Positions 27,211-58,106 of a DNA stretch of 64,000 nt are shown piece by piece. A program made the translations under genes and the position numbers. The stretch is from contig JBHGNT010000011.1 of NCBI GenBank assembly GCA_043228905.1, positions 12,524,001 through 12,588,000 of the forward strand, read 5' to 3'. This DNA comes from Azolla caroliniana (taxonomy: Eukaryota > Plantae > Polypodiophyta). The notes below the pieces were generated by a model, which saw only the letters and a list, made by a program, of their open reading frames with translations, was not told the origin of the DNA and made no database searches. Numbering within the stretch: position 1 is the first letter of the stretch; the number at the start of each line of letters is the position of its first letter.

Positions 27211-27248
<38 letters not shown>

Positions 27249-30200: not shown

Positions 30201-30586
30201 AGTGTCTTCAGTACTCCCCCTCAAGCTTGGCAGATCAGGGATCGTCAATCCGAGATCGGTCATGAATTGCCATAGCTTGTCGGCTCCTAAGGCTTTAGTG
30301 AAGATGTCGGCCGTTTAAAGATTGGTGCTTATGTGTTGTAGGTCGACATCGCCAGCCAGAACGCGCTCTCGGATGAAGTGATAGTGCACTTCGATGTGCT
30401 TTGTCCTCGCGTGGAACACCGGGTTCCGAACCAGATAGATCCTTCAAAATCCTCTTGAGCCATACAGCTTCAAAATCCTCTTGAGCCCAGATCCTTCAAA
30501 ATCCTCTTGAGCCATACAGCTTCAAACGCAGCTACGGCTGCGCCCCTGTATTCCGCCTCCGTACTTGAAAGAGCGACGGTGGGCTG

Positions 30587-36018: not shown

Positions 36019-39000
36019 GGCTGCTTCTTGCTACTCCAGGATATTGCTCCGCTGCCAAGGGAGAAAATAAATCCGGAGGTTGATCTTCTATCGGCTTTGT
36101 AGCCGGCCCAATCGGCGTCTGTGTACCCCTCGAGTCGTATTGGCATCGCGGTCTTGTAGAGGATGCCGCAATCCATTGTGCCGCTCACGTACCGTAGAAC
36201 TCGCTTAGCGCAATCCAAGTGAGTATCACACGGTGTTTGCATGAATTGGTTAAGGAGACCGACCGGATAACTGAGATCGGGTCGAGTGATCGTGAGGTAG
36301 ATGAGACTCCCGATGAGTTGCCGATACTGAGTCGGCTCACACGCTTTGGTGCCGGAGTTCGCATCCAGTTTGAGATTACGATCGAGCGGGGTTGCCACGG
36401 ATTTGCACTCAGCCATCCCGAACTTGTATAACAAGTTGAGGATGTAGTGCCGTTGAGAGATCATGATTCAGGCCAGAGTCCTAATTACCTCGATGCCGAA
36501 GAAGTAGTGGAGCTCCTTCATGTCCGTCATCTCGAACTTGTCGGAAAGGAGAGATTTGACCTTCTTGATTTCGACGAGATGCTCACCTCCAATGACTAGG
36601 TCATCCACATATAAAATGATGACGATCGGACTTGCGGAATCGCTTCGTATGTAGAGGGAGTTATCCGATTTTGACATACGGAAGCTGTTTGATGAAGATA
36701 TTGCGTTATCTTTGAATGCCAAGCACGCGGTGCTTGCTTGAGGCCGTAGAGTAGCTTCTTGAGTCGGCATACAACTTTTGGATGGGTGCTCGAGTTGAAG
36801 CCGGGTGGTTGTATCATGTGCACATCCTCTTCTAATTCACCTTGTAGAAAGGCGTTCTTGACGTCCATTTGATGGAGGTGCCACCCTTTCGCCGCGGCAA
36901 GCGCAATTACGGTCCGCACCGTTGTCATCTTTGCCACCGGGGCAAAGGTCTCTTCGTAGTCGACGCCATGCGTCTGAGCGTATCCTTTCGCTATGAGTCG
37001 AGCTTTGTAGCGGTTTACGGAGCCATCGGCGTTATACTTCACCTTGTAGATCCATCTGCATCCGATCGCCTTTTTGTGTGGTGAGGTGGGAACGAGATCC
37101 TACGTCTCGTTCTTCCGTAGTGCCTGCATCTCCTCGTTCATTGCTTCGATCCATCACGGGTCCTTTGCGGCTTCCGAAAAGGTTTCCGGCTCCTGTACTG
37201 TCGCTACCTTCATCATAAAGGCGTAATGGTATGCCATATAATCGTTGTAGCCGAATCTGCTTACGGGGTTCTTTTCACGGGTGGATCGGCGGAGTTTTTC
37301 ATTTGCAGAGATGAGGGCTTTCTTAGCTCTGATTGGTACCTCGAAACCGCCGAACTCACTGTCGAGTGAGTGAGTCGATTCATCGTCGTTGAAGCAATCG
37401 TCTTCATATTCCGCCATTTTCGCCTTGCCTTTGTCCATCTTCGGGCTAGGCCGTGATGTGCTTTGATCGCTCAAAGGCTCTTGTGGTCCGCTCAGTCGGG
37501 TCGTGATCGGACTTTCTTCGAACATGCACGTAAGGTGATCTTCATCCTCTATCTCTTGTTCGGTGGATTCCGGGTCGAGCGGGGTCGGAGTCGAAGTTGT
37601 CTTTGGTGCATACCAGGATGCGGACTCATCAAAGATGACGTCTCGACTTACCCAAGATTTTCGAGTTGAGGTGTCGAGTGAGTATCCTACGAGGATACAT
37701 TTCTCTGACTTCGGGTCGAGCTTTTGACGCTTCTCGTCGGGGATGTGCACGTACGCAATGGAATCGAATATCCGAACATGTGATAGGTTCGGCTTCTTTC
37801 CGAAGAATCTTTCGTGCGGAGTGACCTCGTGCACGCCAGATGTTGTGCACCGGTTCATTAGGTAGACGGCCGTATTTGCCGCTTCGGCCCAATATGACTT
37901 GGGATATGCTTCTTGTTCATCATGGCCTGTGCTACTTCGAGGATGTGCCGATTTTTGCGCTTGGCTACTCTGTTTCGTTGCGGAGTGTGTCGGCAAGTGA
38001 ATTCTCGCCGAATTCCTTCCTTTCGGAGATACGCTGTGAAATCGTCTGAGAAATACTCCTTGCCGCCATCCAATCGAAGGCATCGTACATGTCGGCCCGT
38101 GGCTTTCTTGACTTCATTCTTGAAATTTTGGAAGTGTCTGAACACTTCGCTCTTTTGCCGCATCGGGTAGATCCAAGTGTGCCTAGAAAAGTCGTCGATG
38201 AAGAGCACGTAATAGCGGCATCCGCCGAATGTCGCCGTTTGAGCCGGACCCCATACATCGGAATGAATTACGTCGAGTACGCCTTTGCTCACATTCCGCT
38301 CCTTCGGAAATGGGTGTCGGTGTTGCTTGCCGAATTGGCACGCTTCACATACACCTTCAATCTCCTTCTCTTTGAATGTCGGGAGTCCGATGATGACTCC
38401 TTTCGATTTCATTGCTTTGAGTTTGTTGAGATTGATGTGACCGATTCGCTTATGCCATAGCTCTATGTCGGAGTCGGCTTTCGTGCTTTTCGCAAACATG
38501 GCGGATTTCATCTCGTGCGAATCGAGAATGAACATCCGTCCCTCTCTTCTTCCACATGCGATGATTCGGCCTTCTTTTTCGATGAAGCACCCTTCTTGGT
38601 TGAATCGTACTTGCATCCCTTGCTCAACCATTTGGCCGACCGAGACCAAATTCTTTCTAATGGTGGGTACATGCAAGACATTTTTAATGTATGTTTGCTT
38701 ACCTCTTTTGCCGAACGGAACGTTGCCGATGTGCCGAATCGGGTGCGTAGTGTCATCTCCAGTTTCGACATAACCGGGTCGCTCCGGCTCTCGAAGTTCG
38801 AGAAACCATTCTTTGTGGGATGTCATATGGTTTGAGGCTCCGGAGTTAACAAACCATACGTCCTCCGGATTGAGGGCACTAGTTGAGGTAGAGGCCGACA
38901 TAGACTTTGCTCTATGTTTCATCATGAACATTCCGCCACGGTCGGAGTTGTATGTGTACATTCCGCCACGATCCTCGTAGTCGGAATTGTGCCCTTACAT

Positions 39001-39585
39001 TCCGCTATACTCTTCGTAGTTGGAATTGTGCGCGTAATTCATGAGTTGACGGCTTGTGGAAGCCGATTCACGCATCTTCTTTCGGCACTCTTCTTCGTGG
39101 TGGCCAAGCTTTCCGCAATATCCGCATTCGGTTGTGTTTTGACGGCTCGGGCCGGAGTGGAAGCTCCCCCTTCTTGCGAAGGTTCCTTGTTGGCCTCCGT
39201 TTTGCGGCCGAAATTGGGAGTTGTTGTCGTAGGTCGGACCTCGTTCGCCTTGTCCTTGGTCGAATCGGCCTCTCGCTCGTCCGCGTCCTCTTCCTCCATT
39301 AGAGTGCGTGTAGAGCATGTGGCCTTCCGCCTCATTGCTCCTTGTATGCACGTGGTTTTCTTCGATCAATAGCATTGATTGGAGCTCGAAGAAGGAGGGA
39401 GATTTCTCCCGTGCTAGAACGGCGGTTCGCATCGCGCCGAACCGTGGCGCGAGGCCGCCGAGGCATATTTGCACCATCTCATCATCATCTATACTTACGC
39501 TTATTGAGCCGAGCGAGTCGCAAAGCTCCTTGATCTTCAAGGTGTATGTCGTGATGGACATGTCCCTTTGTTGAATGTTGTTCAA

Positions 39586-42500
39586 TGTTAGGATTTGACG
39601 CTTTCAAATCCTACACCTCTCGGCCACAACCGAGGAAACACGGATCAATGCAGCAGTAAATCGAAAACACAGAGAGAGACTCGAATTCACAGGGTTTAGC
39701 GTGGAAAACCCTAGACGGGAAAAACCACGGGAGTGCAAGACTCCAACTATCACTATGCGCAGGGAATGTACAATGGCGAGCTGCAAGGCGACGACCTTGA
39801 GCTCGCAGTCCTCGCCACAGGCGGCGATATTACACAGAGGCATCGACCTCTTCCTTTCTCTCTCCCTCTCTCTCTCTCTCTCGGCTGCTCTCACTTCGCT
39901 CCCTCTTGGAAAACAGAAAAATAAGCAACAACAACAAAACTATTTGCCCTAAGTCATATTTATACACATATGACTTTCGGGCTATTTACAAATACAGCCT
40001 CAAGGGCCCTTGGCAAACATATTCACTAATATGTCCCCGCATCCGGATCTCTCTCCGGGTACATTCGTCATCCGGCTCCGTAGTCGGGGTCTTCATCATC
40101 CGGCTCCGTAGCCGGGGTCTTCATCATCCGGCTCCGTAGCCGGGGTCTTCATCATCCGGCTCCGATACCGGGTCTTCATTCCCGATTCCCGGACATCCGA
40201 TCATCCCATCCGGAGGGACCGTAATCCCAACAAACTCCCCCTTCACTTCGGCATGGGATGTCTTTCCAGTCCGACCCTCTTCCGGCACGCTTCCAGCTTG
40301 TCGGGTGTGAGCACTTTGGTCAGCATATCTGACCCGTTCTCGTCCGTGTGGATCTTCGTCAGCACGAACTCCTGGTCTTCTATCCTTTCCCGGATCCAGT
40401 GATATCTTCGCTGGATGTGCTTCGTCCGGGAGTGATAGGCCGCGTTCTTGGCAAGGTGGATGGCACTCTGACTGTCGCAGTAGAGTCGGTACTCCTCCTG
40501 CCGGATACCGAGCTCTCTAATGAAGTCCTTCATCCATATCATTTCTTTGCCGGCTTCAACAGCCGCCATGTACTCCGCCTCCGTGGTTGACAACGCAACC
40601 GTCTTCTGCAGCCTCGACTGCCACGAAACAGCTCCTCCTGCATACGTCATCACATACCCTGATGTGGACCGGCTGGTATCTGCATCAGCCGACATATCCG
40701 AATCGGTAAAGCCGTCGAGTTCGGGCTTACCGGAGCCGAATCGGAGGCACACGTTTGCCGTGCCCTTCAGGTATCGGAGTATCCACTTGGCCACGTTCCA
40801 GTGCTCTTTGCCGGGATTGCTCATGTACCGGCTCACCACTCCGACTGCATATCCTATGTCCGGTCTTGTACACACCATTGCGTACATCAAGCTTCCGACG
40901 GCAGAGGCATATGGTACTTTCATCATGTCCTCCTTCTCAGCCTTTGTCTTGGGGCTTTGCTTGCTGGACAACTTGTAGTTTGCGGGAGGGTTGACCCGAC
41001 CGGTCTTGCTTCCGACATGTTGAACCGGTGAAGCACCTTTGTCACGTACTTCTCCTGTGACAGCCACAACTGCTTCTTCTTCAGGTCTCGGATGATGTGC
41101 ATCCCTAGTATTTGCCTCGCCGGACCCAGGTCCTTCATTGAGAAGGTTCGGTGAAGTGCTTTCTTCAGCATCCGTATCTTGCCCTGGTCCCGTCCGACGA
41201 TCAACATGTCGTCCACGTACAGGAGGAGTATTAGAAAGTCTCCTCCGTCGAACTTCTTCACAAACACGCAGTGATCGGACTGCGTTTTGTGGTACCCTTC
41301 GTCGGTCATGAAAGAGTCGAACTTCCGGTACCATTGCCAGGGAGCCTGCTTCAGTCCGTAAAGGCTCTTCTTCAACCGGCATACCAGGTGCTCCTTCCCT
41401 TTCTTCTCGAATCCTTCCGGTTGCTGCATGTAGATCTCTTCTTCGAGGTCACCGTGAAGGAATGCCGTCTTCACGTCCATTTGTACTACCTCGAGGTCCA
41501 TGCTTGCCGCTATGCTCAGCACCGTCCGGATGGAGGTCATCTTCACTACCGGGGAAAATATCTCGTCGAAGTCGACGCCCTTCTTCTGCTGGAACCCCTT
41601 CACCACGATCCTGGCTTTGTATCTCGGGGGGTTTCCGGCATCTCCCGGTTTCAGCTTGAACACCCACTTGTTTCGAAGTGCCCGCTTTCCTTTCGGCAAC
41701 TCCACAAGTTCATATGTGTGGTTCTCATGCAGGGAATCCATCTCCTCCTGCATGGCACTTAACCACCTGCGGCTATGGGTGTCGAGCTTTGCTTCTTCAA
41801 AGCTCTCCGGCTCCCCTTCGTCGGTTAGCAGCACGTGCTCTGGTTCCGGAAATCTCCGGGGGGCCCTTCTCTCTCTTAGAGGATATCTCCGTTCCGGAGC
41901 TTCGGGAACCGGCTCCTCCGTTTCCTCTTCATCCGAATCCATTTCGGGATCGGGGCCGGTTCCAGTATCAGTTTCGTCTTCCTCGGCCGGTTCTGTTTCT
42001 TCACCGTCTTCGGCCGGATCCTCGAGTGCTAACCGGTCCCTTGCCGGTCGGGACTGCTCCTCGTAGAGTTGATCCTCACCGGTCGACTTGGAGCTCTTCA
42101 TCTTCTTCTCCGACTCCCAGTCGGCGAGTGTCTTGTCCTCCATGAAGATGATATCACGACTCCGGAATATCTTTTTGTCGACCGGGTCCCATACTCGGTA
42201 GCTGAACTCGTCATCGCCGTAACCGAGGAATATGCATGGCCGGGTCTTTGGATCTAGCTTTCCTCTCCGGTCCTTTGCCACATGCACATATGCGAGACAC
42301 CCGAACACCTTCAGATGCCGGTAGGATACTTCCCTACCGGTCCACACTCTCTGCTGCGTGTCTCCGTCCAAAGGTACTGAGGGTGATCTGTTTATCACGT
42401 ATGTCGCCGTCGACATTGCCTCAGCCCAAAACCCCTTGGGTAATTTCGCATGCGCCAGCATACTCCGGACCCTCTCCATTATGGTCCGGTTCATCCTCTC

Positions 42501-44918
42501 GGCCAGCCCGTTCAGTTCCGGCGTCTTCGGCACAGTAAACTCGAGCTGGATTCCCTTTGAGCGACAATACTCCTCGAACTTCCCCCGGTATTCCCCTCCG
42601 TTATCCGCTCGTATCGCTTTCAGCTTCTTGCCGGATTCCCTTTCCACTCTCGCGTGGAGTTCTTTGAAGACGCACAACACTTGGTCCTTTGTCTTCAACG
42701 GTGCCGTCCACAGCTTCCGGCTGTGGTCATCAATGAATGTCACGAAGTACTGGGCTCCGCCATGTGACTTCGTTTCTACTTGACACACGTCAGTGTGCAC
42801 CAACTCCAATGGTGCGCTACGTCTCGTCGGTGGCCTTGAGTGGAAGGAGGTTCGGTTCTGCTTACCGGCCAGGCAATCGGTGCACTTCTCCAGGTGCACA
42901 TGCTTCACTGGAATAAGGTTGTCTTCTGCAAGCCTCTTCATCCCCTTCTCTTGTGCCACAGCTCACCGGCAGTGTCGTCTTCCACGTTTAACTCCTCCGG
43001 ACACAACCAGGCACTCATAAGGTACAGTGTGTTGACTGTCCGGGCCCGAGCCACTATGAGGCTCCCCTTGCTGAACTTCATTACGCCGTTCCGGATGCTA
43101 CCTGTGTAGCCTTCATCGTCTAGCCTCCCGGCCGAAATCAGGTTCAATCGAACCTCCGGAACGTGTCGGACATCCTTCAGCAACATTTTGCATCCGGTCG
43201 AGGTTGTCAACCACACGTCTCCTATGCCGGCAATCCGGCACGTACCTTCATTTCCCATCCGAACACAGCCATGCTCACCGGCTGTGTAGGATGAGAAGTA
43301 TCTTCTTTCCGGGGTCAGGTGGAACGACGCTCCGGAATCGACCACCCAGGTAGTCTCATCGCCGGCAATGTTTAGTTCACCTTCTTCAGTAATGAGCATG
43401 ATCTCCTCTTCACTTGCCGCGAGTGCCGTCGTTCCTTTCCGGTCCTACCCTCGCCGATCCGAACCATTCCGGTCCGTGGCTCCCCGGTAAGCACCGTTCC
43501 GTTCCGAAGACTTCTTCGAATCGGTGTCGTCGGCTCCGTTGTCTTTTCGGTAATGCCGACAATTCTTTCGGAAGTGCCCCGGCTTCCCACAGTGGAAGCA
43601 TGTGGGCCTTCCTCTTGACTGCGACCGGGTCCCCGACTTCTCCCGTCTTTGCGGACTCTGGTTCCGTTGTCTTCCCCGATCCGATTCGGTAAGCAGCATC
43701 TTCGGATCGGAGGCCGGTTCTTTATCTCTCTGACGCGCTTCTTCGTTCAAAATGCTTGTCTTTACCGTTTGTAGGGACAAGTTATCTTCGGTGCAGGAGG
43801 TGCTGAGAGTCACCACCAAGTTCTCCCAGCTTTCCGGCAATGTACACATCAGGATGATGGCTTGCATTGCATCCTCCAACGGGAACTTGATCGCCGCAAG
43901 CTGGTTCACGAATCCCATGAACGTGCTTACGTGTTCCACCATACTCTCGCCGTCCCGGTACTTGAGGTTCACTATCTTCCTCATCAGGGAGGTCCGGTTC
44001 AACCCATTCTTCCTCTCGTAGAGGCCCGACAGCTTCCGCCACATCTCATATGCGTTGGTGTCGTTCGCCACATGTTGTAGAACGCTCACGTCGATGTATT
44101 GCCGAATGGTTGCAACGGCTTTCCGGTTCAGAAGCCTCCATTCCGTCTCAAGTACCCCCTTGGGTATTTCCGACCTGTCAATCGGTTCATACAGGTCCCG
44201 AACAATGAGCAGATCCTCCATCTTTATCTTCCAGTCGGCGTAGTTCTGCGCATTCAGCACCATCATCCCCGGCTGCCCGCTGTTGCCGCCTTCCATTTTC
44301 TGCACTGCAGTCGCTCTTATACCAGATTGTTAGGATTTGACGCTTTCAAATCCTACACCTCTCGGCCACAACCGAGGAAACACGGATCAATGCAGCAGTA
44401 AATCGAAAACACAGAGAGAGACTCGAATGCACAGGGTTTAGCGTGGAAAACCCTAGACGGGAAAAACCACGGGAGTGCAAGACTCCAACTATCACTATAC
44501 GCAGGGAATGTACAATGGCGAGCTGCAAGGCGACGACCTTGAGCTCGCAGTCCTCGCCACAGGCGGCGGTATTACACAGAGGCGTCGACCTCTTCCTTTC
44601 TCTCTCCCTCTCTCTCTCTCTCTCGGCTGCTCTCACTTCGCTCCCTCTTGGAAAACAGAAAAATAAGCAACAACAACAAAACTATTTGCCCTAAGTCATA
44701 TTTATACACATATGACTTTCGGGCTATTTACAAATACAGCCTCAAGGGCCCTTGGCAAACATATTCACTAATATGTCCCCGCATCCGGATCTCTCTCCGG
44801 GTACATTCGTCATCCGGCTCCGTAGCCGGGGTCTTCATCATCCGGCTCTGATACCGGGTCTTCATTCCCGATTCCCGGACATCCGATCATCCCATCCGGA
44901 GGGACCGTAATCCCAACA
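39586..44918 (-). mobile_element. E7: full-length copia of the E2/E6 family, disrupted by a TAG at 43445, a short deletion at ~42950 and a frameshift at ~40985
   Basis: LTRs 39586-40232 (3') and 44328-44918 (5'), TSD TTCAA (39581-39585, 44919-44923), PBS with one mismatch at 44313-44324. Confidence 0.95.
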
Positions 44919-47128
44919 TTCAACTCTTGGCGGAGTTGAAGCTTCCTCGCGGTCGTCTTGGTGGCGAAAATCTTTCGTAGATTTTCCCACGCTTCCTTCG
45001 GCGTCTTGGCTTCTCGAATGTAACCGAGCATGTGGTCGTGAACACATGTCACCAAACAATACATCACGCGGCTTGCGGCTTGCTCCCATGTCGCGTATCC
45101 GGGAGCCGCTTCGGCGGTTCAGTCTTCATGCACTCCTTTGATGTAGCTCCAATAGCCTTGTCCGACAAGGTATTGGTGCATCTTGTACTCCCAAGATGCG
45201 AAGTTGTTTCGATCCAACTTCTCGGTAGGGAGAGCGCTCCCCATTTGAGTATTCATTATGTTGATTCTTCTTCTTCTTCTTCTCTCTTCGAATGTGAGCT
45301 ATGTAGCGAAGCTACGATAGCGATGAGCCGGTTCTTGGTCGTCGGCGTAGAGCACAACACACGATCACGATGAGGCGAATGGGCTAGATCGAGCTACCAA
45401 ATCGCTCTGATACCATGTAAAGAATCAAGAGATTGATTCTTGTGAAGCGGAAGTGATATGAGTTATGTGTGTGTATATGAGAGAGAGAGAGAGTGAGTGA
45501 GAGAGATAAGGAATACGCAAGGTAAAGGTATATTGACAAAGGAGAAAGACTCAACCTTATACAAGGTGGGAGGAGGGTGCTTTATGTAGTCACCCTCTCT
45601 CTTCATTAACTACAAGGCTCATGGAGCATTGGGAATGTGAAAGCTCATAAGTTATGTGTCATAGAATATGATTCTATGACTCATACTAAATGCTAGAATA
45701 CAAAGTGGTGACATAATGGTGACTCTTGACCGTTGAGGTGTCTCTTCACTCTCAGGGTGAGTTCACACACTAGACCAAGTTGAGCTTGATTCTCAACAGA
45801 GTGCATGGGCTAACTCCATACGAGCTCCTCGTCGCAAGGAAGCTGATCCTATCGCACCTCAAGGTGTTCGGAAGCATTGCAAATGTACACATCCTGAACG
45901 AAAGCTGACAGAAGCCCGACACGAAGTCGGAGGAATATATCCTCATAGGATACTCGTCTAAGAAGAAGGCATACAAGTGCTACAACCCTTCTACCCGAGC
46001 GGTTCGGGTAAGTCGAGACGTAGTCTTTGACGAGTCCGCATCCTGGTAGGCACCAGAGACAACTTTGACTCTGACTCCGCTTGACCTGGAATCTGCCGAA
46101 CAAGAGGTAGAAGATGGAGATCGCTTCGAACACATGTTCGAAGAAAGTTCGATTACGGCAAAGCCTAGTGGGCCACAAGATCCCCCATGCGACCCAAGCA
46201 TGTTGCGGCCAAGTACGAACTTGGAGAAATGCAAAGGTAAGATGCCCGAACACGAAGTTAACCACCCCGACGAAAATGATTCGGATGGATCGGCTCCCTC
46301 ACTAGACAGTGAGTTTGGTGTACCCATCATGCGTACACCTGGAGTAAAGAAGGCGCTCACATTGGCGAGCGAAAAACTTCGACGCTCTTCTAGAGAGAAG
46401 AATCCCGTCACTCGGCTTGGTTACAACGAGTATATGACCCATCATTACGCGTTTGCGATGAAGGTAGCGGTCGAGCAAGAGCCCAAGAGCTCTACTGAAG
46501 CGGCTCGTAACCCACGATGGGTGGAAGTAGTCGACCTTCACCCACACGCTACAAGCCTTCGTCTCCGGCTTGAGGGGGAGGAACTGAGATTGCTACGACA
46601 AAGAAAGCCGAAGGCCGGACGGAAGCACACGAAACCGACAAAAGCCAAAGCGGATGTCGGGCGCCTCACACTTGAGCTTGAGGGGGCATGTTGAGAGATC
46701 AAGCTCAACTTAGTTTAGTTAGTTAGTCAACCATATAACTTTGTAGTTACCTAGATAGCATCTAGTTAGAAGTGTTGACTATAACGCCTTAAATAGGACC
46801 ATGTACTTAAGCGGGATATTCTAGATCCTCCACTCCTAAGTACATTTAATATAGGACATACACATTAGTACCTTTGCACATGAGATGTATATATATACCT
46901 CATTGTGCATATTTTTGTATTTGATGATGTTTTATTATATACACTCTAGTTTACTCATCCCCCATCTTGTGTTGTTCATAAGTCTCTCTCTCTCTCTCTT
47001 CCTCTCATACACATACACACACATATCACATAATCTTTCGCTTATTAACTAATCACATAATTAGGTACTAATTAATCCTTGCTTAATTACTTACCTAGTT
47101 CTTAACACTCCCCTAAAAAATTTGTGAA

Positions 47129-48333
47129 GTAAATGGCACTTGCAAGGTTCAATTACCATCAACACAATTATTAATGTTTTTTTTAATCAAGGAAGCACAT
47201 GTTCACCATAAGGTATCTTGTTGTGCAACATACTTCTTTACATTATCAATATGCATCTTTCACTCTTGTAGAACAGAGATTTTAGTACAATTCTAGTTCA
47301 TGATTAAAAACCCTGTTTTATTTTGAAAAAGAAGAACATTTCTAAACATGAACTCGATACATTCCGTATGTTTTCATCACAATTCCGTATGATGTATCAA
47401 ATTCATGTTCAAAGTTTTTTTCCCCGGATTTTAAAAATAAAAAAATCGAGCTTGAGTTAATGAATAAACTAGATTTTTCACCACAATTCAAACAATGTAT
47501 CAAGTTCATGTTTAAAGTAATTTGTTTTAATTTTTTTCAATTTGTTTTCTTTTATTTATTTTATTTTATTTTTATTATTATTTGGAAAAAAAACTTTAAA
47601 CATAAATTCGATACATTTTACTGACTCATGATTAAAACTCTGGTTTTTTCATCACTTCAAACTCAAAATGTTTTTTTGTTATAAAGAAAAACAAAATAAC
47701 CAAAATAAATAGAAAGAAAAACAAAATTTAAAAAAAATATTTAACATGAACTCAATACATTGTAATGTATCGAGTTCCTGTTTAAAGTTTTTTTAAAAGA
47801 ATTGACTTTTTTGTTTTAAAAAAATATTTTGAGCTTGAAGTAATGAAATAACCAGAGTTTTCATCACAAGTCGATACAATATATCGAATTCATGTTTAAA
47901 GTTTTTTTTCCCAAAAAATAATACAAACAATTTGAAAAGAAATTAAAACAAAAAAAAAATTACTTTAAACATGAACTCGATATAATGTGTTGAATTGTGG
48001 TGAAAAATCTGGTTTTTTCATCAACTCAAGCTCTAGTTTTTTATTTTTTTATTTTTTTAAATCTGGGAAAAAAAACTTTGAACATGAATTTGATACATTG
48101 TATCGAGTTCATGTTTATAAATCTTCTTTTTTTTCAAATGAAAGAGGTTTTTTAGACATGAACTCGAATTGTACTAAAATCTCTGTTTTTACAAGAGGAA
48201 AAGATGCATATCAATACTGCAAAGAAGTATGTTGCACAACAAGATACCTTATGGTGAATATGTGCTTCATTGATTAACAAAAAACCATGAATAACTGTGT
48301 TGATGGTAATTGAACCTTGCAAATGCCATTTAC
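47129..48333. repeat. ~1.2-kb imperfect palindrome (foldback) inside DNA transposon copy A
   Basis: GTAAATGGCACTTGCAAGGTTCAATTACCATCAACACA... at 47129 is inverted at ...TGTGTTGATGGTAATTGAACCTTGCAAATGCCATTTAC ending 48333. The centre is near 47762. Confidence 0.9.
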
Positions 48334-50339
48334 GTGGTCTATAAAATATTCTCGTGGTTCTTAATCACCACTTCAAGCACTTTATGTTGATCTTCATAGT
48401 TTGGTTCATCTAAAACAAAGAAACATTTATATGGAACTAAGGATGACAACATGAGCATAACTCAAGTGACAAGGAAACTTGCAAGAACTCAAGGTGGGGA
48501 TATTAATAGCTAGGCATGTAGATGGCCATGACCTAGGGCACCAATTCTGCATTAGTAAAGTTTTGGACGTGGTGATGCATTAAACCTTTGTAATACATCT
48601 ATCATTGACATTAGTGAGGTGGATATCATTGTGTATGAATTTACACACACAAAAGTTGGATGTTTAAGGACGACAACGATAGACATAATAAATAAGATAT
48701 TGCCAAGTCTAGAAGATATTTTAGATTGAAGGCGAACAAGATTTAGTGCACACAATTTGGAGACACCATTTGGTGAAGACAATAATTTGATTGGTACATT
48801 TGAAAATGAGGAGGAAGAGTTACAATTGTATATTAGCTATAATAATGATTCTCATGAAAGGAATGATGATAGTGATACAAATAACTCCTAAATGTATTTT
48901 TTGTGCAATGATATGTAACAAATTTAGACAACATTTTATCGAATGAAATAAAAAAGTTGATTGTTTTGAAATCTTTCGCTTATGATTTTATTAGGATCTA
49001 AAATACTACTAGTTGTAAAAATTTCTCCTTAAAAATACACAAAGTTACTTTTCGTATTTGGCCAAATTTTGGCATTTTTCATCAAGTTTTTGAGAACATG
49101 TGATACTAGTATCAAGGTGTTTTGTGAAATGGCCAAAAAAGCCCCAAAATCAGAAGGAATATTCCTTATCCTTCCATTTGTGCGCGATCCTTCCATTTGT
49201 GAACGCGAACGTGTTTTAACTGCCCTGGTCTTTTCTTTCAGTTATGATGTTTCCTCTTCTTGACTTTTTTGCTATTTGTCGCCACCAAACAACGGGTCAC
49301 TCTGATACCAATTCTGGGCAGATATGCACGGAAGAATGTGAGGAAATGTCGGTTATGTGTATTGCAAACAACACAAAGAGTATGATAGAAGAAATCATGA
49401 TGGAAACGTAGACACAATTCAAGCTCTAATGGAAGCTCTCATTATTCTTTAACTCTACACTCTTAGAGACTCAAGATACAAGATCATTATTCTTACAACA
49501 TTAGGTTAGAGCTTATATACTAAGCCCTAACTATTTGGACGTGTTCATACTAAGATGCAAAGTGGAAGGAGTCAACCTTTTATGCCAATAGAGGAGGCCC
49601 GGAGCCGAATTAAAACATTGGAGGACGAATTGGAAAGGGCCAAAGAGTTATTAGCCATCCAGGCAAACTTAGGCCAGGACAACAGGACAGAGCCGGAAGG
49701 AGAGGCTCGGAGAGAAGAACCAGTTGCAAGTAAAGCACTAGAAAAAGAACGAGAATGGAAAAAGAATTAGAAGCGTTGAAGGATGAATTGGTCGCATAAG
49801 CGACATTGAAGGAGAACGAAAAGAAATTAAGAAAGGTAGTCGAAGATGAAAAACGGCGGATGGAAGACTCTAGTGAATGCAAAGTAACATGGACTGGCTG
49901 AAAGAGGAGAAAGAGACGTTGGAGCAGGACAAGGACAAACTCCGGCGGATGGCTGAAACGGAGATTGAGTGGCTCAAGGAGGAACTTCAACAATAAAAAG
50001 ATCGAGACGATTGGTTGCGGCACAAGCCAACCAAGGACTGAAGGAAAAATCGTAGGACTTTGACAAGATGTATCGAGAGCACAAGGAGCTCGAAAAAGAG
50101 TATGATTGCCAGTGAGAAAAACTAAGCAAAGGCCCGTGCAGAGGTGAAGGAGAAAATAGAGGCGTTCATGGGACAACAAAGACCGTTGGCAAAAATAGTG
50201 GCGAAGGAATGGATGGAGCTGCTATTGGAGAATAACCAAGCAATCAAACGGTCGAATGTTGTATTGGATAAGTGCAAATGGCATACCAAACCCAAGCAAC
50301 AAATTATGACATCCAAGTATCGGTCGCATGGTTTTGGAA

Positions 50340-51030: not shown

Positions 51031-52171
51031 GTTACGAAGGCGCTATGGCTCTTCTCTGTGCACAGCGGATCGTTTAGTGCTCAAGACAGAAAGGGGAAGG
51101 GGAAGGAGACTTACCGTTGCACAGTCCTAAAGCTTCAATTCCATTACACACAGAGCTCAACTCACTCTCATCAGTTTTCTGGTCTTACTTCTCTCTACAC
51201 TAATACCTTACTACACTTACTTTTTACCTAAGTACATAAGTGACTTACATATGCAGCTAATTAGCTACCAGTAGCTAATTAGCTGTCAGTAGCTAAATAA
51301 ACACGTTTGCGTTCACAAGTGGAAGGATCGCGCACAAGTGGAAGGATAAGGAATATTCTGTTTGATTTTGGGGTTTTTTTTGCCATTTCACAAAACATCT
51401 TGATACTAGTATCACATGTTCTCCAAAACTTGATGAAAAAGTTGAAAATTTCACCATTTGGTAAAATTGAAAAATGCCAAATTTGGGTAAAATATGAAAA
51501 GTAACTTTGTGGATTTTTAAAGAAAAATGACAACTAATAAGTTTTTAGATCTTAAAGAAATCAAAGTAGAATATTTCAAAACAATGAACGTTTTTATTCC
51601 ATTCGATAAAATGTTGTCTAAATTTGTTACATATAGTTGCACAACAAATACATTTGGGAGTTATTTGCATGACTATCATCATTCTTTTCATGATAATCAC
51701 TACTATAGATAATATACAATTGTGACTCTTCCTCCTCATCTTCTAATGTACCAATCAAATCATTGTCTTCACCAAATGGTATCTCCAAATTTTGTGCAAT
51801 AAATCTTCTTCGTCTTTAATCTGAGATATCTTCTAGACTTGCTAATATCTCTTTTATTATGCATATCGTTGTTGTCCTTATACATCCAACTTTTATTTGT
51901 GTAAAGTCATACATAATGATATCCACCTCATTAATGTCAATGATAGATGTATTACAAAGGTTTTATGCATCATCACGTCCAAAACTTTACCAATGCAGAA
52001 TTGGTACCCTAGGTCATGGCCATCTACATGTGTAGCTATTAATATACTCACCTTGACTTCTTGCAAGTTTCCTTGTCACCTGAGTTATGCTTGTGTTGTC
52101 ATCATTCGTTCCAACTATAAAGATCAACATTAAGTAGTGATTGAGAACAACACGAACACTTTATGGACCGT

Positions 52172-55100
52172 GTAAATGGCATTTGCAAGGTTCAATTACC
52201 ATCAACACAATTATTAATAGTTTTATGTTAATCAATGATGCACATGTTTACCATAAAGTATCTTATTGTACAACATACTTGTTTGCACTATCGATATGCA
52301 TCTTTTTCTCTTGTAAAAACAAAGATTTTAGTACGATTCAAGTTCATGTTTAAAAAACCTCTTTTATCTGAAAAACAACAAGATTTTAAACATTAAGTCG
52401 ATATGTTATATCGAGTTGATGTAAAAAATAGAGTTTTCATCATAATTCCATACAATGTATTGAGTTATTGCTCAAAGTTTTTTTTACTAGATTTAAAAAA
52501 TAATAATAATAATAAATTGTGCTTGAGTTCATCTAGAAAACCATAATTTTCATCACAATTCGATATAATGTATTGAGTTCATGCTTAAAGTAATTTTTTC
52601 TAATTGTTTTCAATTTTGTTTCAATTTTTTTCAATTTTTTTGTAGTTTTTTATTGATTTTGTTTTATTTTTTAAACATCAATTTGATACATTGTATCGAC
52701 TTGTGATAAAAGCTTTGGTTTTTTCATCACTTATTCAAGCTCAATTTTGTTTTAGAAAAAAAAACAAAGTACCAAAATAAAATAGAAAAAAATGTAATTA
52801 TTTTTAAAAAAAAATCTAAAATTAAACTTTTCATGTCATGATATGGTAGGACTCGAACCCATGACCTTATGTTACATGGGTCAAGCTCTTGACAATTAAA
52901 CCATACATTGTAATACATAAAATATTATTTTTATCACTTCTTAAAGCTCAATTTTTTTTTAGAAAAAAAACAAAACACCATAATAAAATAGGAAAAAATG
53001 TAATTATTTTTTAAAAAAAATCCGAAATAAAACTTTAAACATGAACTCGATACACCGTGTCAGGTTCATGTAAAAAAGTTAGCTTTTCAACATGAACTTG
53101 ATACGCCGTATCGGGTTCATGTAAAAAAGTTAGTATCGAGTTCTTGTAAAAAAAGGTAACTTTTTTATATGTCATGATATGGTAGGACTCGAACCCATGA
53201 CCTTCTACTACATGGGTGGAGCTCTTGACCATTAGACCATGCACTATAATATATAAATTATTATTTTTATCACTTATTAAAGCTTAATTTTATTTTAGAA
53301 AAAAAACAAAACACCATAATAAACTAGGAAAAAATGTAATTATTTAAATAAAAAAATCTGAAATAAAACTTTAAACATGAACTCGATACGCCGTATCGAG
53401 TTCATGTAAAAAAGTTAGCTTTTCAACATGAACTCGATACGGCGTATCGAGTTCATGTTTAAAAGGGGTATCGAGTTCATGTAAAAGAGTTAGCTTAGTT
53501 CATGACATGATATAGTAAGACTCGAACCCATGACCTTTTGCTACATAGGTGAGGCTCTTAACCATTAGACCATACATTGTAATACATGAACTATTATTTT
53601 TATCACTTATTAGAGCTTAATTTGTTTTTAGAAAACCAACAAAACACCATAATAAAATAGGAAAAAATGTAATTATTTTTAAAAAAAAATCCGAAATAAA
53701 ACTTTAAACATGAATTCGATACGCCGTATCGAGTTCATGTAAAAAAGTTAGCTTTTCAACATGAACTCGATACGGCGTATCGAGTTCATGTTTAAAAGGG
53801 GTATCGAGTTCATGTAAAAGAGTTAGCTTAGTTCATGACATGATATAGTAGGACTCGAACCCATGACCTTCTACTACATAGGTGAGGCTCTTAACCATTA
53901 GACCATACATTGTAATACATAAACTATTATTTTTATCACTTATTAGAGCTCAATTTGTTTTTAGAAAACAAACAAAACACCATAATAAAATAGGAAAAAA
54001 TGTAATTATTTAAAAAAAAAAATCCGAAATAAAACTTTAAACATGAATTCGATACGCCGTATCGAGTTCATGTAAAAAAGTTAGCTTTTCAACATGAACT
54101 CGATACGGCGTATCGAGTTCATGTTTAAAAGGGGTATCGAGTTTATGTAAAAGAGTTAGCTTAGTTCATGACATGATATAGTAGGACTTGAACCCATGAC
54201 CTTCTACTACATAGGTGACCATTAGACCATACATTGTAATACATAAACTATTATTTTTATCACTTATTAGAGCTCAATTTGTTTTCAGAAAACAAACAAA
54301 ATACCAAAATAAAATAGGAAAAATGTAATTATTTAAAAAAGTAAATCAGAAATAAAACTTTAAACATGAACTCGATACGCCGTATCGAGTTCATGTAAAA
54401 AAGTTAGACTTTAAACATGAACTCGATACGCCGTATCGAGTTCATGTTGAAAAGGCGTATCGAGTTCATGTAGTGATATGTAGGACTTGAACCCATGACA
54501 TTATGCTACATGGGTTAAGCTCTTGACCATTAGACGATACATTGTAATACATAAAATATTATTTTCCTCACTTATTAAAGCTCAAAGCCTTTTAGAGAAA
54601 AAAACAAAATACCAAAATAAAATAGGAAAAAATGTAATTATTTTAAAAAAAAAATCAGAAATAACACTTTCAACATGAACTCGATACGTCGTAGATTAAC
54701 TCATGTCATCATCATTCCCTCTCATTCCCTCTCTCTCTCTCAGTCTCTCTCTCTCTTCTTTTCTCAAGTGTTCTACACCTTAAATTCTTCTTAGTACTAA
54801 TATTTCTCTCTTAGTACTAATTTCGTCTCTGTCTTAGAATTTTGTTTTTGAGCTTTAATAAGTGATGAAAAAACCTGAGTTTTTATCACAAGTCGATACA
54901 ATGTATCAAGTTCATGTTTAAAATTATTATTTTTTCCATAAAAAATAAAAAAAATAAAAAAAATAAAAGAAATTAAAAGGAACAAAAAGAAACAAAAAAA
55001 AATTGAAAAAAAATTAAAAAAATTGAAACAAATTGAAAATGTTTTTTTTTTAAATTAGAAAAAATTACTTTAAACATGAACTCGATACATTGTATTGAAT

Positions 55101-55417
55101 TGTGATGAAAAATCTGGTTTTTCTATGAACTCAAGCTTAATTTATTTTTATTTTTATTTTTTTAATTCGGTAAAAAAACTTTGAACATGAATTTAATATA
55201 TTGTATAGAGTTATGATGAAAACTCTATTTTTTACGTCAATTCAATACAACATATCGTGTTCATGTTTAAAACTCTTGTTGTTTTTCAAATAAAAGAGGT
55301 TTTTAAAGATGTATGTTGCACAACAAGATACCTTATGGTAAATATGTGCTTCATTTATTAGAAGAAAACCATTAATAATTGTGTTGATGGTAATTGAACT
55401 TTGCAAATGCCATTTAC
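52172..55417. repeat. Foldback arms (~600 bp each) of copy B, enclosing a tandem array
   Basis: GTAAATGGCATTTGCAAGG at 52172 and GCAAATGCCATTTAC ending 55417. The arms are homologous to those of copy A. Confidence 0.88.
52700..54695 (-). repeat. Tandem array of six ~333-bp units, each with a tRNA-like (Pol III A/B box) module, separated by 35-bp palindromes
   Basis: The B-box reverse complement (G/A)GACT(C/T)GAACC occurs at ~52849, 53185, 53518, 53851, 54184 and 54483. Minus strand A box TGGTCTAATGG. Palindrome AACATGAACTCGATACG-N-CGTATCGAGTTCATGT(T). Confidence 0.88.
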
Positions 55418-58106
55418 TTCACAAATTTTGAAGGGGAATTCTTATAAGGAAGGAGATTATAACATTGTAGATACCTTGATAACTATGTGTTATGTTCAAA
55501 TTGATATATTAATGTTCACATCTAAAGTTTGACAATTTATGAATATCGTCTACATTTTAGGAGTTGTGGATTTATCAAAATTGTTTATGAATATTGTCTA
55601 CATTTCTTGAGTTGTGAATTTATGGATGTTAATGAGCACTAATTTATAGATGATGACATTAAGGATTGCAATATTACCTTTTATACTTAAAACATTTTCA
55701 AGTCTAACAATAGATGTAACCTTAATCTTCTCAAGACGGTGAAACCATTAATCTTAACTTGTGCCTTGAGTTTACCATAATTGTGATTTTCTTTAAGTTA
55801 ACTACATTTCATATCTGCAAACCATCAACATTTAAACATTATCCCTAAACTATTCAATTTTAGAAATTATCATTTAGAAATTTGTTAAATCTCAAAAAAT
55901 TAGCAAAATTTACATGCTATTTAAAACATGTGATACTAGTGTATCAAGTTTTTGGAAATTGTCTAAAATCGCAAGATTATAAAAGGAATCTATAAGTGGA
56001 ATGCGCAATCCTTCCACTTGTGAATGCAAAGGTGTTAATAGTTGTTTCACCTTTATGTCCACTAGTAGCTAATTAGCTAATAGCTATTGTGAAAGTGTTT
56101 TTAGAATCTAAGCCATTGAACATTAGAATAATATAAAGTATGGATAACTCACATTTGGAGGCTAAGAACACGAACCAAGACCTTAGGATGAAGTCAAAAG
56201 TAAAAGTAAGAGACCAAGAGAAAAGTCAAAAGAGAAAAAGCAGACCATAAAAAACAGTAAAAACGGAATGGTCATAACTCCTTCGTTTTTCACCCAAATG
56301 TTATGTTTAAATATAGGTTAGAAATCTTGTAAAGAGAGCTATCTATAGATTTTTAAATCCCTAAATTTGGAGCTCTGATGAGGGAGATATGAAGATTAGA
56401 AGGTCGTTGGGTCTTAGCTAAAAATAGGAGATAAAAAGCTTCTAAAAATTGCGTGAACGAGGAAGAAGAAGAAAATTATAAAAGAGGAAGTGATAGTCTT
56501 TGATGGGGGAACTAATAGGAAGAGGATCCTAATAGAGGAAGAGGATTAGGAAGAAGGGTCTTAGTGGAAGAGGAAGGGTCTTAATTGTGGTTTTGAATGA
56601 TTGGTAGTAAGAAGGTCTTTGGTTTCTTTATTGAATGTGGAGTTTATCTCCTTTGTATTGTCTTGATATTGGAATATCATAACAATCTTATCTCTTTCTC
56701 ATCTTCTCTATCTTTTTCCTTAATTTCTTGAGTCTCTATGTCTCTATCTCTCTAATTCATAGATACCTTGATCTATATAATATATTACGAGTCACAATTC
56801 CATCTAACCGATTTGGTCAAGCCCTCATATAGTGTAAGATTACCCTTTGTCTTAAACACTCTATCAACTACTATAACTTATTCCTCAATAAGCATCACAT
56901 ACCTTTGTTGAGCTTGCTTCTCAACACTCCCCCTCAAGCTCAACTTATCCTTTCTTGGGATCATCTTCAATCTTCTTTTCTTCATGCTTTTCAGCTACCA
57001 TGCCGATGGTTATGACTCCCATCATGTCTCTAAACTGTGTATGTTTTTGCATGCTCAATCTCTTCGTAACCATATAAGCAACTTGCTGATTTGTACTTAC
57101 ATACAATAGATCCACTTCTCCATCAATCACTTTTTCTCTAACAAAGTGATGATGCACTTCAATGTGCTTCGTTCTTGCATGGAACATTGGGTATTTTGCC
57201 AGCTGAATGCTACTCATATTGTCACACCAAATTGTGACAACACCATCTATATATTCTCCCAAATCAAAAAGCAATCTTCTGATCCATACCTCTTCATAGG
57301 TGGCTATTGCAGCTCCTCTATATTCAGCTTCAATACTAGATAGTGCAACAGTAGCTTGTTTCTTGCTACTCAATGAAATAACTGCACTTCCCAATGTAAA
57401 CATATATCCACTTGTAGATCTTCTGTCAGTTTAGCTTCCAGCCTAATCAACATCTGTATATCCTTCCAACTTTATGTCTAAATCAGCCTTGTAAAACAGT
57501 CCATAGTTCTGAGTAGCTTTTACATACCTCAAGATTCTTCTAATGCAGTCCAAATGCGGCTTTGTTGGCTGTTGCATAACTCAAATCGGGTCTTGTTATA
57601 GTCAAATATATGAGGTTGCCCACCATAGACCTGTACATGTTTACATCTTCTATTTTGGCTCCCAAATCAGCCCTCAATTTGCAGTCCTTATCTAGTGGTA
57701 CACTAATAGGTTTGCATCCAAGCATACCATACTTCTTCAACATATTTGTTGCATACTGTTTTTGCAACATATATATACCACTTTAAGATCTGATCATCTC
57801 AATACCGAGAAAGTATCTTAGCTCTCCCAAATCTTTCATATGAAATTGCATCTCCCAAACCTCCAATGATTAAGTCATCAACATATATCAAGATAATAAC
57901 AATGCAATCATTTATCCTCTTTACATATAATGATGGATCAGCCTTTGACATTTTGAAAGCAATTTTTTTTAAAGATTCTAAAAATTCTTTATGCCATGCC
58001 CTTGGTGCTTGTTTCAATCCATAGAGAGCCTTTTTCAGCCTACATACATATTCTGGATGCTTCTTATCTTCAAAACCCAGTGGTTGACACATATACACTT
58101 CTTCTT

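What the first reader, a model, noticed from the sequence alone, without database searches (positions are those of the whole stretch)
52700..54695. Array of tRNA-like Pol III modules and near-perfect palindromes at the centre of a foldback DNA transposon
Seen: six head-to-tail units with spacing of about 336, 333, 333, 333 and 299 bp. On the minus strand each carries a ~70-nt tRNA-shaped segment, e.g. TATGGTCTAATGGTTAAGAGCCTCACCTATGTAGTAGAAGGTCATGGGTTCGAGTCCTACTATATCA. Unit 5 has an internal deletion. A T-run lies shortly downstream of most modules. The intervals between modules contain about two 35-bp palindromes (17-bp arms, 1-nt spacer) plus a half-site. Established: TGGTCTAATGG and GGTTCGAGTCC match the type-2 Pol III A and B boxes at tRNA-like spacing, and TTTT terminates Pol III. 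Copy A of the same transposon lacks the array, so it is a variable cargo. Inference: it could be a transposon-borne battery of Pol III small-RNA or hairpin-RNA cassettes, or of TFIIIC/insulator sites, amplified inside a foldback. I do not recognise this arrangement from described plant transposons.
Basis: partly seen in the sequence, partly recalled or inferred. Interest (0 to 1): 0.85.

Follow-up and report, generated by a model that had tools for sequence, protein, structure and literature searches.

The report
Retrotransposon scrap amplified inside DNA transposon
The tRNA-like repeats are the first 100 bases of a common retrotransposon's terminal repeat, copied in tandem inside a small cut-and-paste transposon together with that transposon family's own palindromes, and it is likely the palindromes, not the decaying tRNA promoter boxes, that the element needs.

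Summary
The array is real (spacings 336, 333, 333, 333, 299) and is a family trait, but it is not a purpose-built Pol III battery. It lies in a 4.7-kb non-autonomous DNA transposon (51300-56036; AACAC...GTGTT ends; 4-bp target duplication in 31 of 32 two-ended copies; 1-8 modules per copy). Each module is nt 1-100 of the LTR of a high-copy chromovirus (up to 91% identical); more of that LTR follows the array. That LTR, and three diverged chromovirus LTR families, begin with an antisense tRNA-derived segment. The palindromes are inherited: a coding 9.3-kb relative with the same ends has 11 of them at the same 51-bp period, between a transposase and a DNA-methyltransferase gene. In arrays the B-box CpG survives in 94 of 214 modules, the palindrome CpG in 775 of 859 half-sites; broken modules were carried through the youngest burst. 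Likely history: LTR insertion into the central palindromes, then unequal recombination, which also rebuilt palindrome number. No expression test was possible. The scan noted the methyltransferase-bearing relatives in this genome before, and reversed tRNA relics in LTRs of other genomes.

The parts
51300..56036 (.). Non-autonomous Sola-type DNA transposon, copy B (4737 bp), flanked by the 4-bp duplication AATA (51296-51299, 56037-56040)
   Evidence: ends and duplication rule from 32 two-ended copies
51300..51335 (+). Left terminal inverted repeat; 34 of its first 35 bases equal the left end of the coding relative at G000:C15:17747941
56001..56036 (-). Right terminal inverted repeat; 41 of 43 terminal bases equal the coding relative's right end
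51720..52316 (-). Degenerate remnant of the 3' end of a DUF7869 transposase gene (stops, frame breaks, deletions)
   Evidence: tblastn E 1.7e-10 and 2.1e-6 against the L229 transposase, two weaker upstream pieces; 66% DNA identity to the C15 element's left end
52172..52830 (+). Inner left arm with degenerate palindromes; inverted-repeated in the right arm; its last ~110 bp recur in every unit
   Evidence: (family D10)
52834..52934 (+). Module 1: LTR nt 1-101 (91% to the L110 3' LTR); tRNA-like A/B boxes on the minus strand
53170..53270 (+). Module 2 (87% to LTR)
53503..53603 (+). Module 3 (86% to LTR)
53836..53936 (+). Module 4 (85% to LTR)
54169..54260 (+). Module 5, 9-nt deletion between the boxes
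54469..54566 (+). Module 6, LTR start eroded, A box broken; the same break is in the last module of 15 of the 15 youngest copies
53040..53121 (.). Palindrome pair 1 (imperfect), 51 bp apart
53376..53457 (.). Palindrome pair 2; core GAACTCGATAC-NNN-GTATCGAGTTC shared with the coding relative
53709..53790 (.). Palindrome pair 3
54042..54123 (.). Palindrome pair 4
54365..54446 (.). Palindrome pair 5
54708..54837 (+). 3' piece of the same LTR (about nt 290-418), lacking the last ~14 nt; 94% identical to the piece in a sister subfamily, up to 88% to free LTRs
54848..55417 (-). Inner right arm, inverted copy of the inner left arm
26273..49215 (-). Copy A: older subfamily member (78-86%), TTAA duplication, no LTR piece, split by a nested retrotransposon block at about 26898-47108

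Best explanation
The array is a chimeric tandem repeat in a non-autonomous Sola-type DNA transposon: each unit joins the first 100 bases of a chromovirus LTR, which already carried an antisense tRNA-derived segment, to the transposon family's own palindrome pair, and the palindromes are likely the part kept by selection while the tRNA boxes ride along and decay. Shown: (1) the module's identity and source; (2) older subfamily members have palindromes but no LTR piece, a sister subfamily keeps a nearly whole solo LTR with the same right junction, and two other copies have chromovirus insertions at GTATC inside the palindrome; (3) a coding relative with the same ends has the same palindrome at the same 51-bp period; (4) the whole element spread by cut-and-paste with the array inside. 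Inferred: a chromovirus inserted into the central palindromes and was reduced to a solo LTR; unequal recombination or slippage between the palindrome repeats duplicated the block [inner arm + palindromes + LTR start] to 1-8 copies; the transposase of the very active coding family moves the element in trans; a protein of that family (its methyltransferase fusion or its transposase) binds the palindromes, so copies that rebuilt a longer palindrome row would transpose better.
For: Module = LTR nt 1-101 at 79-91%, LTR nt 290-418 after the array. 6 of 6 modules found outside the element in the flanks of 39 loci run on into the same LTR, two directly behind a polypurine tract; full element L110 has RT, RNase H, integrase, chromodomain; 3281 first-look candidates, best 40 at 97-100%. 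40 of 40 array loci examined lie in the element; 31 of 32 two-ended copies have a 4-bp duplication. Older copies without module and sister copies L206-L210 with a solo LTR; insertions GTATC|TG...CA|GTATC in L222/L226 and L223. Coding relative: 9328 bp, AAAT duplication, 927-aa DUF7869 frame (E 1.8e-51), N6_N4_Mtase exon (E 3.5e-8), 11 perfect palindromes, no module; 150 of 150 scored transposase matches 97-100% identical. B-box CpG intact in 94 of 214 against 775 of 859 palindrome half-sites, higher for palindromes in 48 of 51 elements; on one tree of 128 units 21+27 changes against 1+0 and 4+6; in the 15 youngest copies B box 44 of 65, spacer CpG 44 of 57, palindrome 338 of 360, arms 230 of 239. 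Last module A-box-broken in 15 of 15 and a doubly mutated B box shared by 8 of 15 youngest copies. Module folding z median -1.8 in 169 array modules against -4.0 in 35 LTR modules. Near-perfect palindromes per element: 0-4 in 9 module-free copies, 4-12 in the 15 youngest array copies, 4-8 in the sister subfamily, which expanded them as a plain 51-bp tandem.
Against: No binding or transposition test; the role of the palindromes is inferred. Their low CpG loss could come from hairpin repair or recent re-copying, and equals that of the arms (p = 0.26). Palindrome counts fall with age, so the contrast with older copies is confounded. The A box is well kept (1.7-2.5 changes per site against 3.7-5.0), though it has no CpG; 99 of 211 modules still meet both box patterns, the units amplified last mostly do, and only 8 of 51 elements have none, so weak selection for some working boxes is not excluded. 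Copies are related by descent and recombine, so the p-values overstate independence; one palindrome position was fixed by my filter. The coding relative is only 66% identical in the arm: a likely helper, not the direct parent. No target duplication survives round the captured LTR. 35 of the 40 best left-arm hits carry at least one module, so the module is nearly fixed in the young subfamily.
Confidence: 0.65

Rival explanations
1. Wholly neutral repeat: same origin, but neither module nor palindrome matters; palindromes simply promote slippage and self-repair, and the array hitch-hiked with the master copies.
For: Unit lengths vary widely (188-619 bp) with no helical phase; a 1.66-kb two-ended copy has lost the whole centre (L100) and L108 lost its modules; palindrome CpG retention equals that of the arms.
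Against: Same palindrome and 51-bp period kept in a relative only 66% identical in the arm, and 128 neighbour distances of exactly 51 bp in arrays; two lineages expanded palindromes in different ways; a more distant family keeps the core CGATRC-N3-GYATCG in the same place (L229).
Confidence: 0.22
2. One reading: the array is kept as a battery of Pol III promoters or TFIIIC sites that shields the element from silencing or makes small hairpin RNAs.
For: Real tRNA ancestry; both boxes at 44-45 nt in most intact modules and T-runs behind them; only the tRNA-like 100 nt of the 430-nt LTR was multiplied, and the sister subfamily duplicated the same piece separately, inverted; 43 of 51 elements keep at least one intact module.
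Against: Boxes not more conserved than the rest of the module; the B-box CpG is the most changed dinucleotide of the unit; broken modules spread with the youngest burst; the coding relative and older subfamilies have no module; the multiplied piece is also simply the piece next to the palindromes and shares short words with them (ACTCGA, TCATG).
Confidence: 0.11
3. An ordinary dispersed SINE that landed in the element and was amplified.
For: tRNA-derived, rod-folding head; a SINE inserted long ago into the LTR is the origin Kojima proposes for Helenus (PMC10886601).
Against: Every outside copy seen begins at the TG of an LTR and continues into it; no tail or own target duplication seen. I did not enumerate all 836 first-look candidates (40 scored).
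Confidence: 0.02

Closest known systems
Tetris foldback transposon of Drosophila virilis (PMC4079207; abstract and outline seen)
   Same: Non-autonomous, modular TIR element that carries about 200-300-bp internal tandem repeats of variable number.
   Different: Here the unit is a chimera of a captured LTR end and the family's palindromes, lies in the centre rather than in the TIRs, and no long satellite arrays were seen (at most 8 units in 51 elements).
Helenus / TRIMp3 and Cassandra (Kojima 2024, PMC10886601; parts 1-4 of 6 read, supplements and figures not seen)
   Same: LTRs with a non-functional tRNA-like segment whose A and B boxes stand out; the paper also says that not a few LTRs in Repbase hold part of a tRNA.
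   Different: The source here is a 5.6-kb gag-pol chromovirus, not a TRIM under 1.3 kb; the segment is antisense at the very start of U3; and the finding is a fragment of it inside a DNA transposon.
Sola superfamily (PMC10741241 and PMC3845634, passages; Bao et al. 2009 not held)
   Same: 4-bp target duplication, 2-9 kb, reported from a moss; transposase with acidic motifs that I recall as Sola-like.
   Different: No AWWT preference (0 of 31 duplications); coding relatives carry a DNA-methyltransferase gene and a palindrome array.
Tcn1-like chromoviruses of non-seed plants (PMC2864245, passages)
   Same: About 430-bp LTR, chromodomain, polypurine tract, no tRNA primer site, T-rich leader, 5-bp duplication; slight palindrome preference reported for Tcn1 (PMC6911290, passages).
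   Different: The passages seen mention no tRNA-like segment in the LTR; clade membership was not tested by a tree.
VANDAL/VANC anti-silencing transposons (named in an earlier scan note; details recalled, not read)
   Same: Element-encoded second protein plus tandem cis motifs that non-autonomous copies could borrow.
   Different: Different superfamily and protein; binding here is untested.

Membership tests
tRNA gene cluster | Cloverleaf detected by tRNA models | tested here: not met
   ARAGORN 0; no RF00005 hit; rod folds
tRNA-derived SINE | tRNA-related head with A and B boxes | tested here: met
tRNA-derived SINE | Dispersed as free copies with tail and own target duplication | tested here: not met
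   outside copies seen are LTR starts; not all candidates enumerated
Helenus / TRIMp3 | tRNA-like sequence inside the LTR | tested here: met
   (source LTR)
Helenus / TRIMp3 | Short non-coding TRIM with primer site | tested here: not met
   source element 5.6 kb with gag-pol domains, no TGG primer site
Helenus / TRIMp3 | Pol III transcription from the LTR | not testable with these tools
   no stranded raw RNA reads offered
Foldback element | Long modular inverted repeats starting at the termini | tested here: not met
   terminal repeats about 36 bp; 570-bp inverted repeat is internal
Sola superfamily | 4-bp target duplication | tested here: met
   31 of 32; coding relative AAAT
Sola superfamily | Sola-clade DDD transposase | tested here: inconclusive
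   DUF7869 E 1.8e-51; Atlas neighbours DUF7869; no named Sola reference compared
Sola1 group | AWWT target preference | tested here: not met
   0 of 31 duplications fit (hallmark per PMC3845634)
Tcn1-like chromovirus (source of the module) | Gypsy domain order with C-terminal chromodomain, TG...CA LTRs, polypurine tract | tested here: met
Tcn1-like chromovirus (source of the module) | Placement in the Tcn1 clade by RT tree | not tested
   no reference sequences at hand
ParB-methyltransferase transposons of earlier scan notes (coding relative) | Amino-methyltransferase gene beside the palindrome array | tested here: met
   N6_N4_Mtase E 3.5e-8; 52-60% to L229 pieces
ParB-methyltransferase transposons of earlier scan notes (coding relative) | ParB-like fold | tested here: inconclusive
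   no ParB hit in Pfam or NCBIfam; Atlas lead DUF3723; no fold run

The most novel reading that the evidence does not exclude
A non-autonomous DNA transposon has turned a captured retrotransposon end into a two-part anti-silencing cassette: it multiplies binding sites for its helper's DNA methyltransferase and interleaves them with TFIIIC sites taken from an antisense tRNA-type promoter that a whole clade of coding chromoviruses keeps at the start of its LTRs as a chromatin barrier.
Probability: 0.1. Interest if true: 0.8.

Novelty: new variant of a known kind. Interest (0 to 1): 0.4.

Why it matters
As it stands it is a well-resolved case of how a mobile tandem repeat is born: empty, freshly inserted, solo-LTR, inverted and tandem states all survive in one genome. 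Two points reach further. Non-coding copies keep and re-expand exactly the palindrome row of the methyltransferase-bearing coding family, which is independent sequence evidence that the row is a cis site and gives a ready test substrate. And at least four diverged chromovirus families here open their LTRs with an antisense tRNA-like segment, which my searches did not find described for coding plant chromoviruses; if TFIIIC binds there, thousands of LTRs would be mobile Pol III sites.

Tried and rejected
Functional tRNAs: rejected. miRNA precursors: Rfam hits on the palindromes are all far below their gathering scores. A single tRNA isotype as source: best matches differ (Ile, Arg, Lys) with near-equal scores. 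Helical phasing of unit or long palindrome distances: none, Rayleigh p 0.5-1.0 on 57 and 62 distinct distances. L222 as the direct ancestor of the array: rejected; its LTRs are 98.4% alike and its junction differs, so it is a separate, later insertion. L229 as the helper: different terminal repeat and palindrome flanks; the C15 family fits instead. Remnant of the methyltransferase gene in the right arm: no significant match. Expression: no RNA holder listed; contigs of four guessed-RNA runs covered only the LTR-type module (X1, X3, running on into LTR-like sequence) or only palindromes (X2), none spanning a unit; no evidence either way. Box-specific conservation in free LTRs: boxes beat the rest (p = 0.013) only because of the AT-rich tail; the stretch between the boxes is as conserved. 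Earlier scan notes on this sequence: none by sequence or words. Literature searches for the combination found nothing; the DAM-retrotransposon preprint has no 'Sola' or 'ParB' in its main text (supplements closed). No structure or complex prediction was run.

Full report
Observation. The six modules, their spacings, the deletion in unit 5, the T-runs and the palindrome pairs are as described. Four window units align to tRNA genes of the same genome with scores of 55-62 against a shuffled maximum near 36 (0 of 300 base shuffles; 39 tRNAs from 30 loci), so the tRNA ancestry is real, but no tRNA model accepts them and they fold as rods.

The carrier. The window is part of a 523-Mb eukaryotic assembly, by its retrotransposon content likely a non-seed plant (inference). 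One unit gave 486 matches from 40 scored of 1960 candidates. I fetched the 39 other loci behind the 150 listed matches; all lie in the same element. Of 40 loci, 32 have both ends; they start AACAC, end GTGTT, measure 2.7-5.4 kb, and 31 have a 4-bp duplication of no fixed sequence, one a 5-bp one (three of them share flanks and are segmental duplicates). Their left arms are 93-99.6% identical to the window. Modules number 1-8 in 51 elements. The left arm is a decayed transposase 3' end. The terminal repeats are short and the long inverted repeat is internal, so 'foldback' describes the look, not the class.

Source of the module. Six modules lay outside the element in those flanks; all six start an LTR and run on into it, two directly behind a polypurine tract. 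A full 5.6-kb element with such LTRs has gag, protease, RT, RNase H, integrase and chromodomain; its LTR has 3281 first-look candidates, the best 40 being 97-100% identical. The six window modules match LTR nt 1-101 at 79-91%, and 54708-54837 matches nt 290-418. History is preserved in relatives picked from a protein search (20 loci fetched: 19 of the 150 matches and one other place): older copies and copy A have palindromes only; five sister copies keep a nearly complete solo LTR with the same right junction and a 3' piece 94% like the window's, plus inverted copies of the module; two copies have chromovirus insertions bounded by GTATC inside a palindrome. A slight palindrome preference is reported for Tcn1 (PMC6911290, passages).

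Source of the palindromes. An earlier scan note pointed to transposons with a methyltransferase and a palindrome array. The element it names (L229) has AACAC ends and a related transposase but another terminal repeat. Using its proteins on loci already held, I found the matching family: G000:C15:17747941-17757268, 9328 bp, AAAT duplication, ends nearly identical to the window's, a 927-aa open transposase frame (DUF7869), 11 perfect copies of the same palindrome mostly 51 bp apart, then a divergent gene with an N6/N4-methyltransferase exon, and no LTR piece. A 200-aa part of its transposase has 150 of 150 scored matches at 97-100% (their ends were not checked). A second coding-type copy with the same ends and period is interrupted by an array-bearing element (L052). 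The 'ParB' and 'Sola1' labels come from the earlier notes and from recall; my own calls give DUF7869, N6_N4_Mtase and an Atlas lead to DUF3723.

Selection test. From 273 modules of at least 60 aligned bases (211 in elements, 62 in LTRs; short or diverged copies missed), the 22 box positions do not change less than the other 79 in arrays (p = 0.40). The B box and the palindrome both contain ACTCGA; its CpG is intact in 94 of 214 B boxes and 775 of 859 half-sites, and better kept in palindromes in 48 of 51 elements. On one tree of 128 units (129 of 205 modules had a following palindrome) the counts are 21+27 against 1+0 and 4+6. In the 15 youngest copies, leaving out the last module and the shared doubly mutated one, the B box (44 of 65) behaves like a spacer CpG (44 of 57), the palindromes (338 of 360) like the arms (230 of 239). 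The last module has a broken A box in 15 of 15 and the one before a dead B box in 8 of 15, so masters carried them. The strong rod fold of the LTR version (median z -4.0, 35 sequences) weakens in arrays (-1.8, 169). Against my reading: the A box is well kept, 99 of 211 modules meet both patterns, the middle units amplified last mostly do, 43 of 51 elements keep at least one, and copies are not independent.

Mechanism. Shown: identity of parts, presence of intermediate states, spread by cut-and-paste, decay of the B box. Inferred: LTR insertion into the palindromes, solo-LTR formation, unequal recombination among palindromes, trans-mobilisation, and selection on palindrome number (0-4 in 9 module-free copies, 4-12 in the 15 youngest, 11 in the coding copy, confounded by age). 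I give this 0.65, a wholly neutral repeat 0.22, a selected Pol III/TFIIIC battery 0.11, a SINE 0.02.

The LTR side. Among LTR starts next to chromodomain or SH3 hits (22 sequences, 60 loci), four families with 45-100% chromodomain identity carry an antisense tRNA-like segment in the first 110 nt (0 of 100 shuffles each); two more are weak (4-14 of 100), one lacks it, and four control LTRs lack it. Rfam does not call any. If the boxes work anywhere it is likely there.

Comparison and verdict. Tandem repeats inside non-autonomous TIR elements (Tetris, abstract) and tRNA-like sequence in LTRs (Kojima 2024, parts 1-4 of 6; PMC13570524, passages) are known; this combination was not found in nine paper searches, and Repbase entries and supplements were not seen. 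New variant of a known kind; interest 0.4.

Noticed in passing
L116, L228, L236, L261, L256 (LTR starts); weaker in L237, L257, L249: At least four diverged chromovirus families open their LTR with an antisense tRNA-like A/B-box segment; three of them fold as strong rods (z -3 to -5). An LTR inserted in L211 has a similar segment 115-180 nt from its start.
   Followed up: partly
L110 just after the 5' LTR and about 35 nt after the TATA box: No tRNA primer site; the bases after the 5' LTR are complementary to a stretch at the likely transcript start, suggesting Tf1-like self-priming (recalled mechanism). PMC2864245 left priming of SM-Tcn1 unexplained.
   Followed up: partly
G000:C15:17747941-17757268 (L232, L113): Coding element with intact-looking transposase, 11 perfect palindromes at 51 bp and a methyltransferase gene; at least 150 near-identical transposase copies in the genome, many with a 927-aa open frame.
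   Followed up: partly
L222/L226 and L223: Two separate chromovirus insertions at the same GTATC position of the palindrome, each with that 5-bp duplication: a possible hot spot.
   Followed up: partly
L206-L210, centre: Sister subfamily with a plain 51-bp palindrome tandem, inverted module copies and a near-complete solo LTR whose module is only 81% like the window's while its 3' piece is 91-94% alike; the uneven divergence is unexplained.
   Followed up: partly
L213:7002 onward (to L234:2380): Another family with the same terminal repeat but a different, 62-bp-spaced palindrome array and methyltransferase pieces.
   Followed up: no
L105:3450-5600: LINE-like reverse transcriptase fragment inserted in the CT run of the captured LTR.
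   Followed up: no
window 26273-49215: Copy A is split by about 20 kb of nested retrotransposons bounded by two similar LTRs near 26900 and 46690.
   Followed up: partly
L044, L047, L048, L061 (C4:9.2-9.8 Mb): Same insertion site in four loci: a segmental duplication series.
   Followed up: no
L146, L153, L154, L163: Tandem clusters of tRNA-Lys(TTT) and tRNA-Ile(TAT) genes and variants, some with changed anticodons.
   Followed up: no
L216:400-700: Stretch with several tRNA-like segments on the minus strand next to a fragment of this transposon.
   Followed up: no
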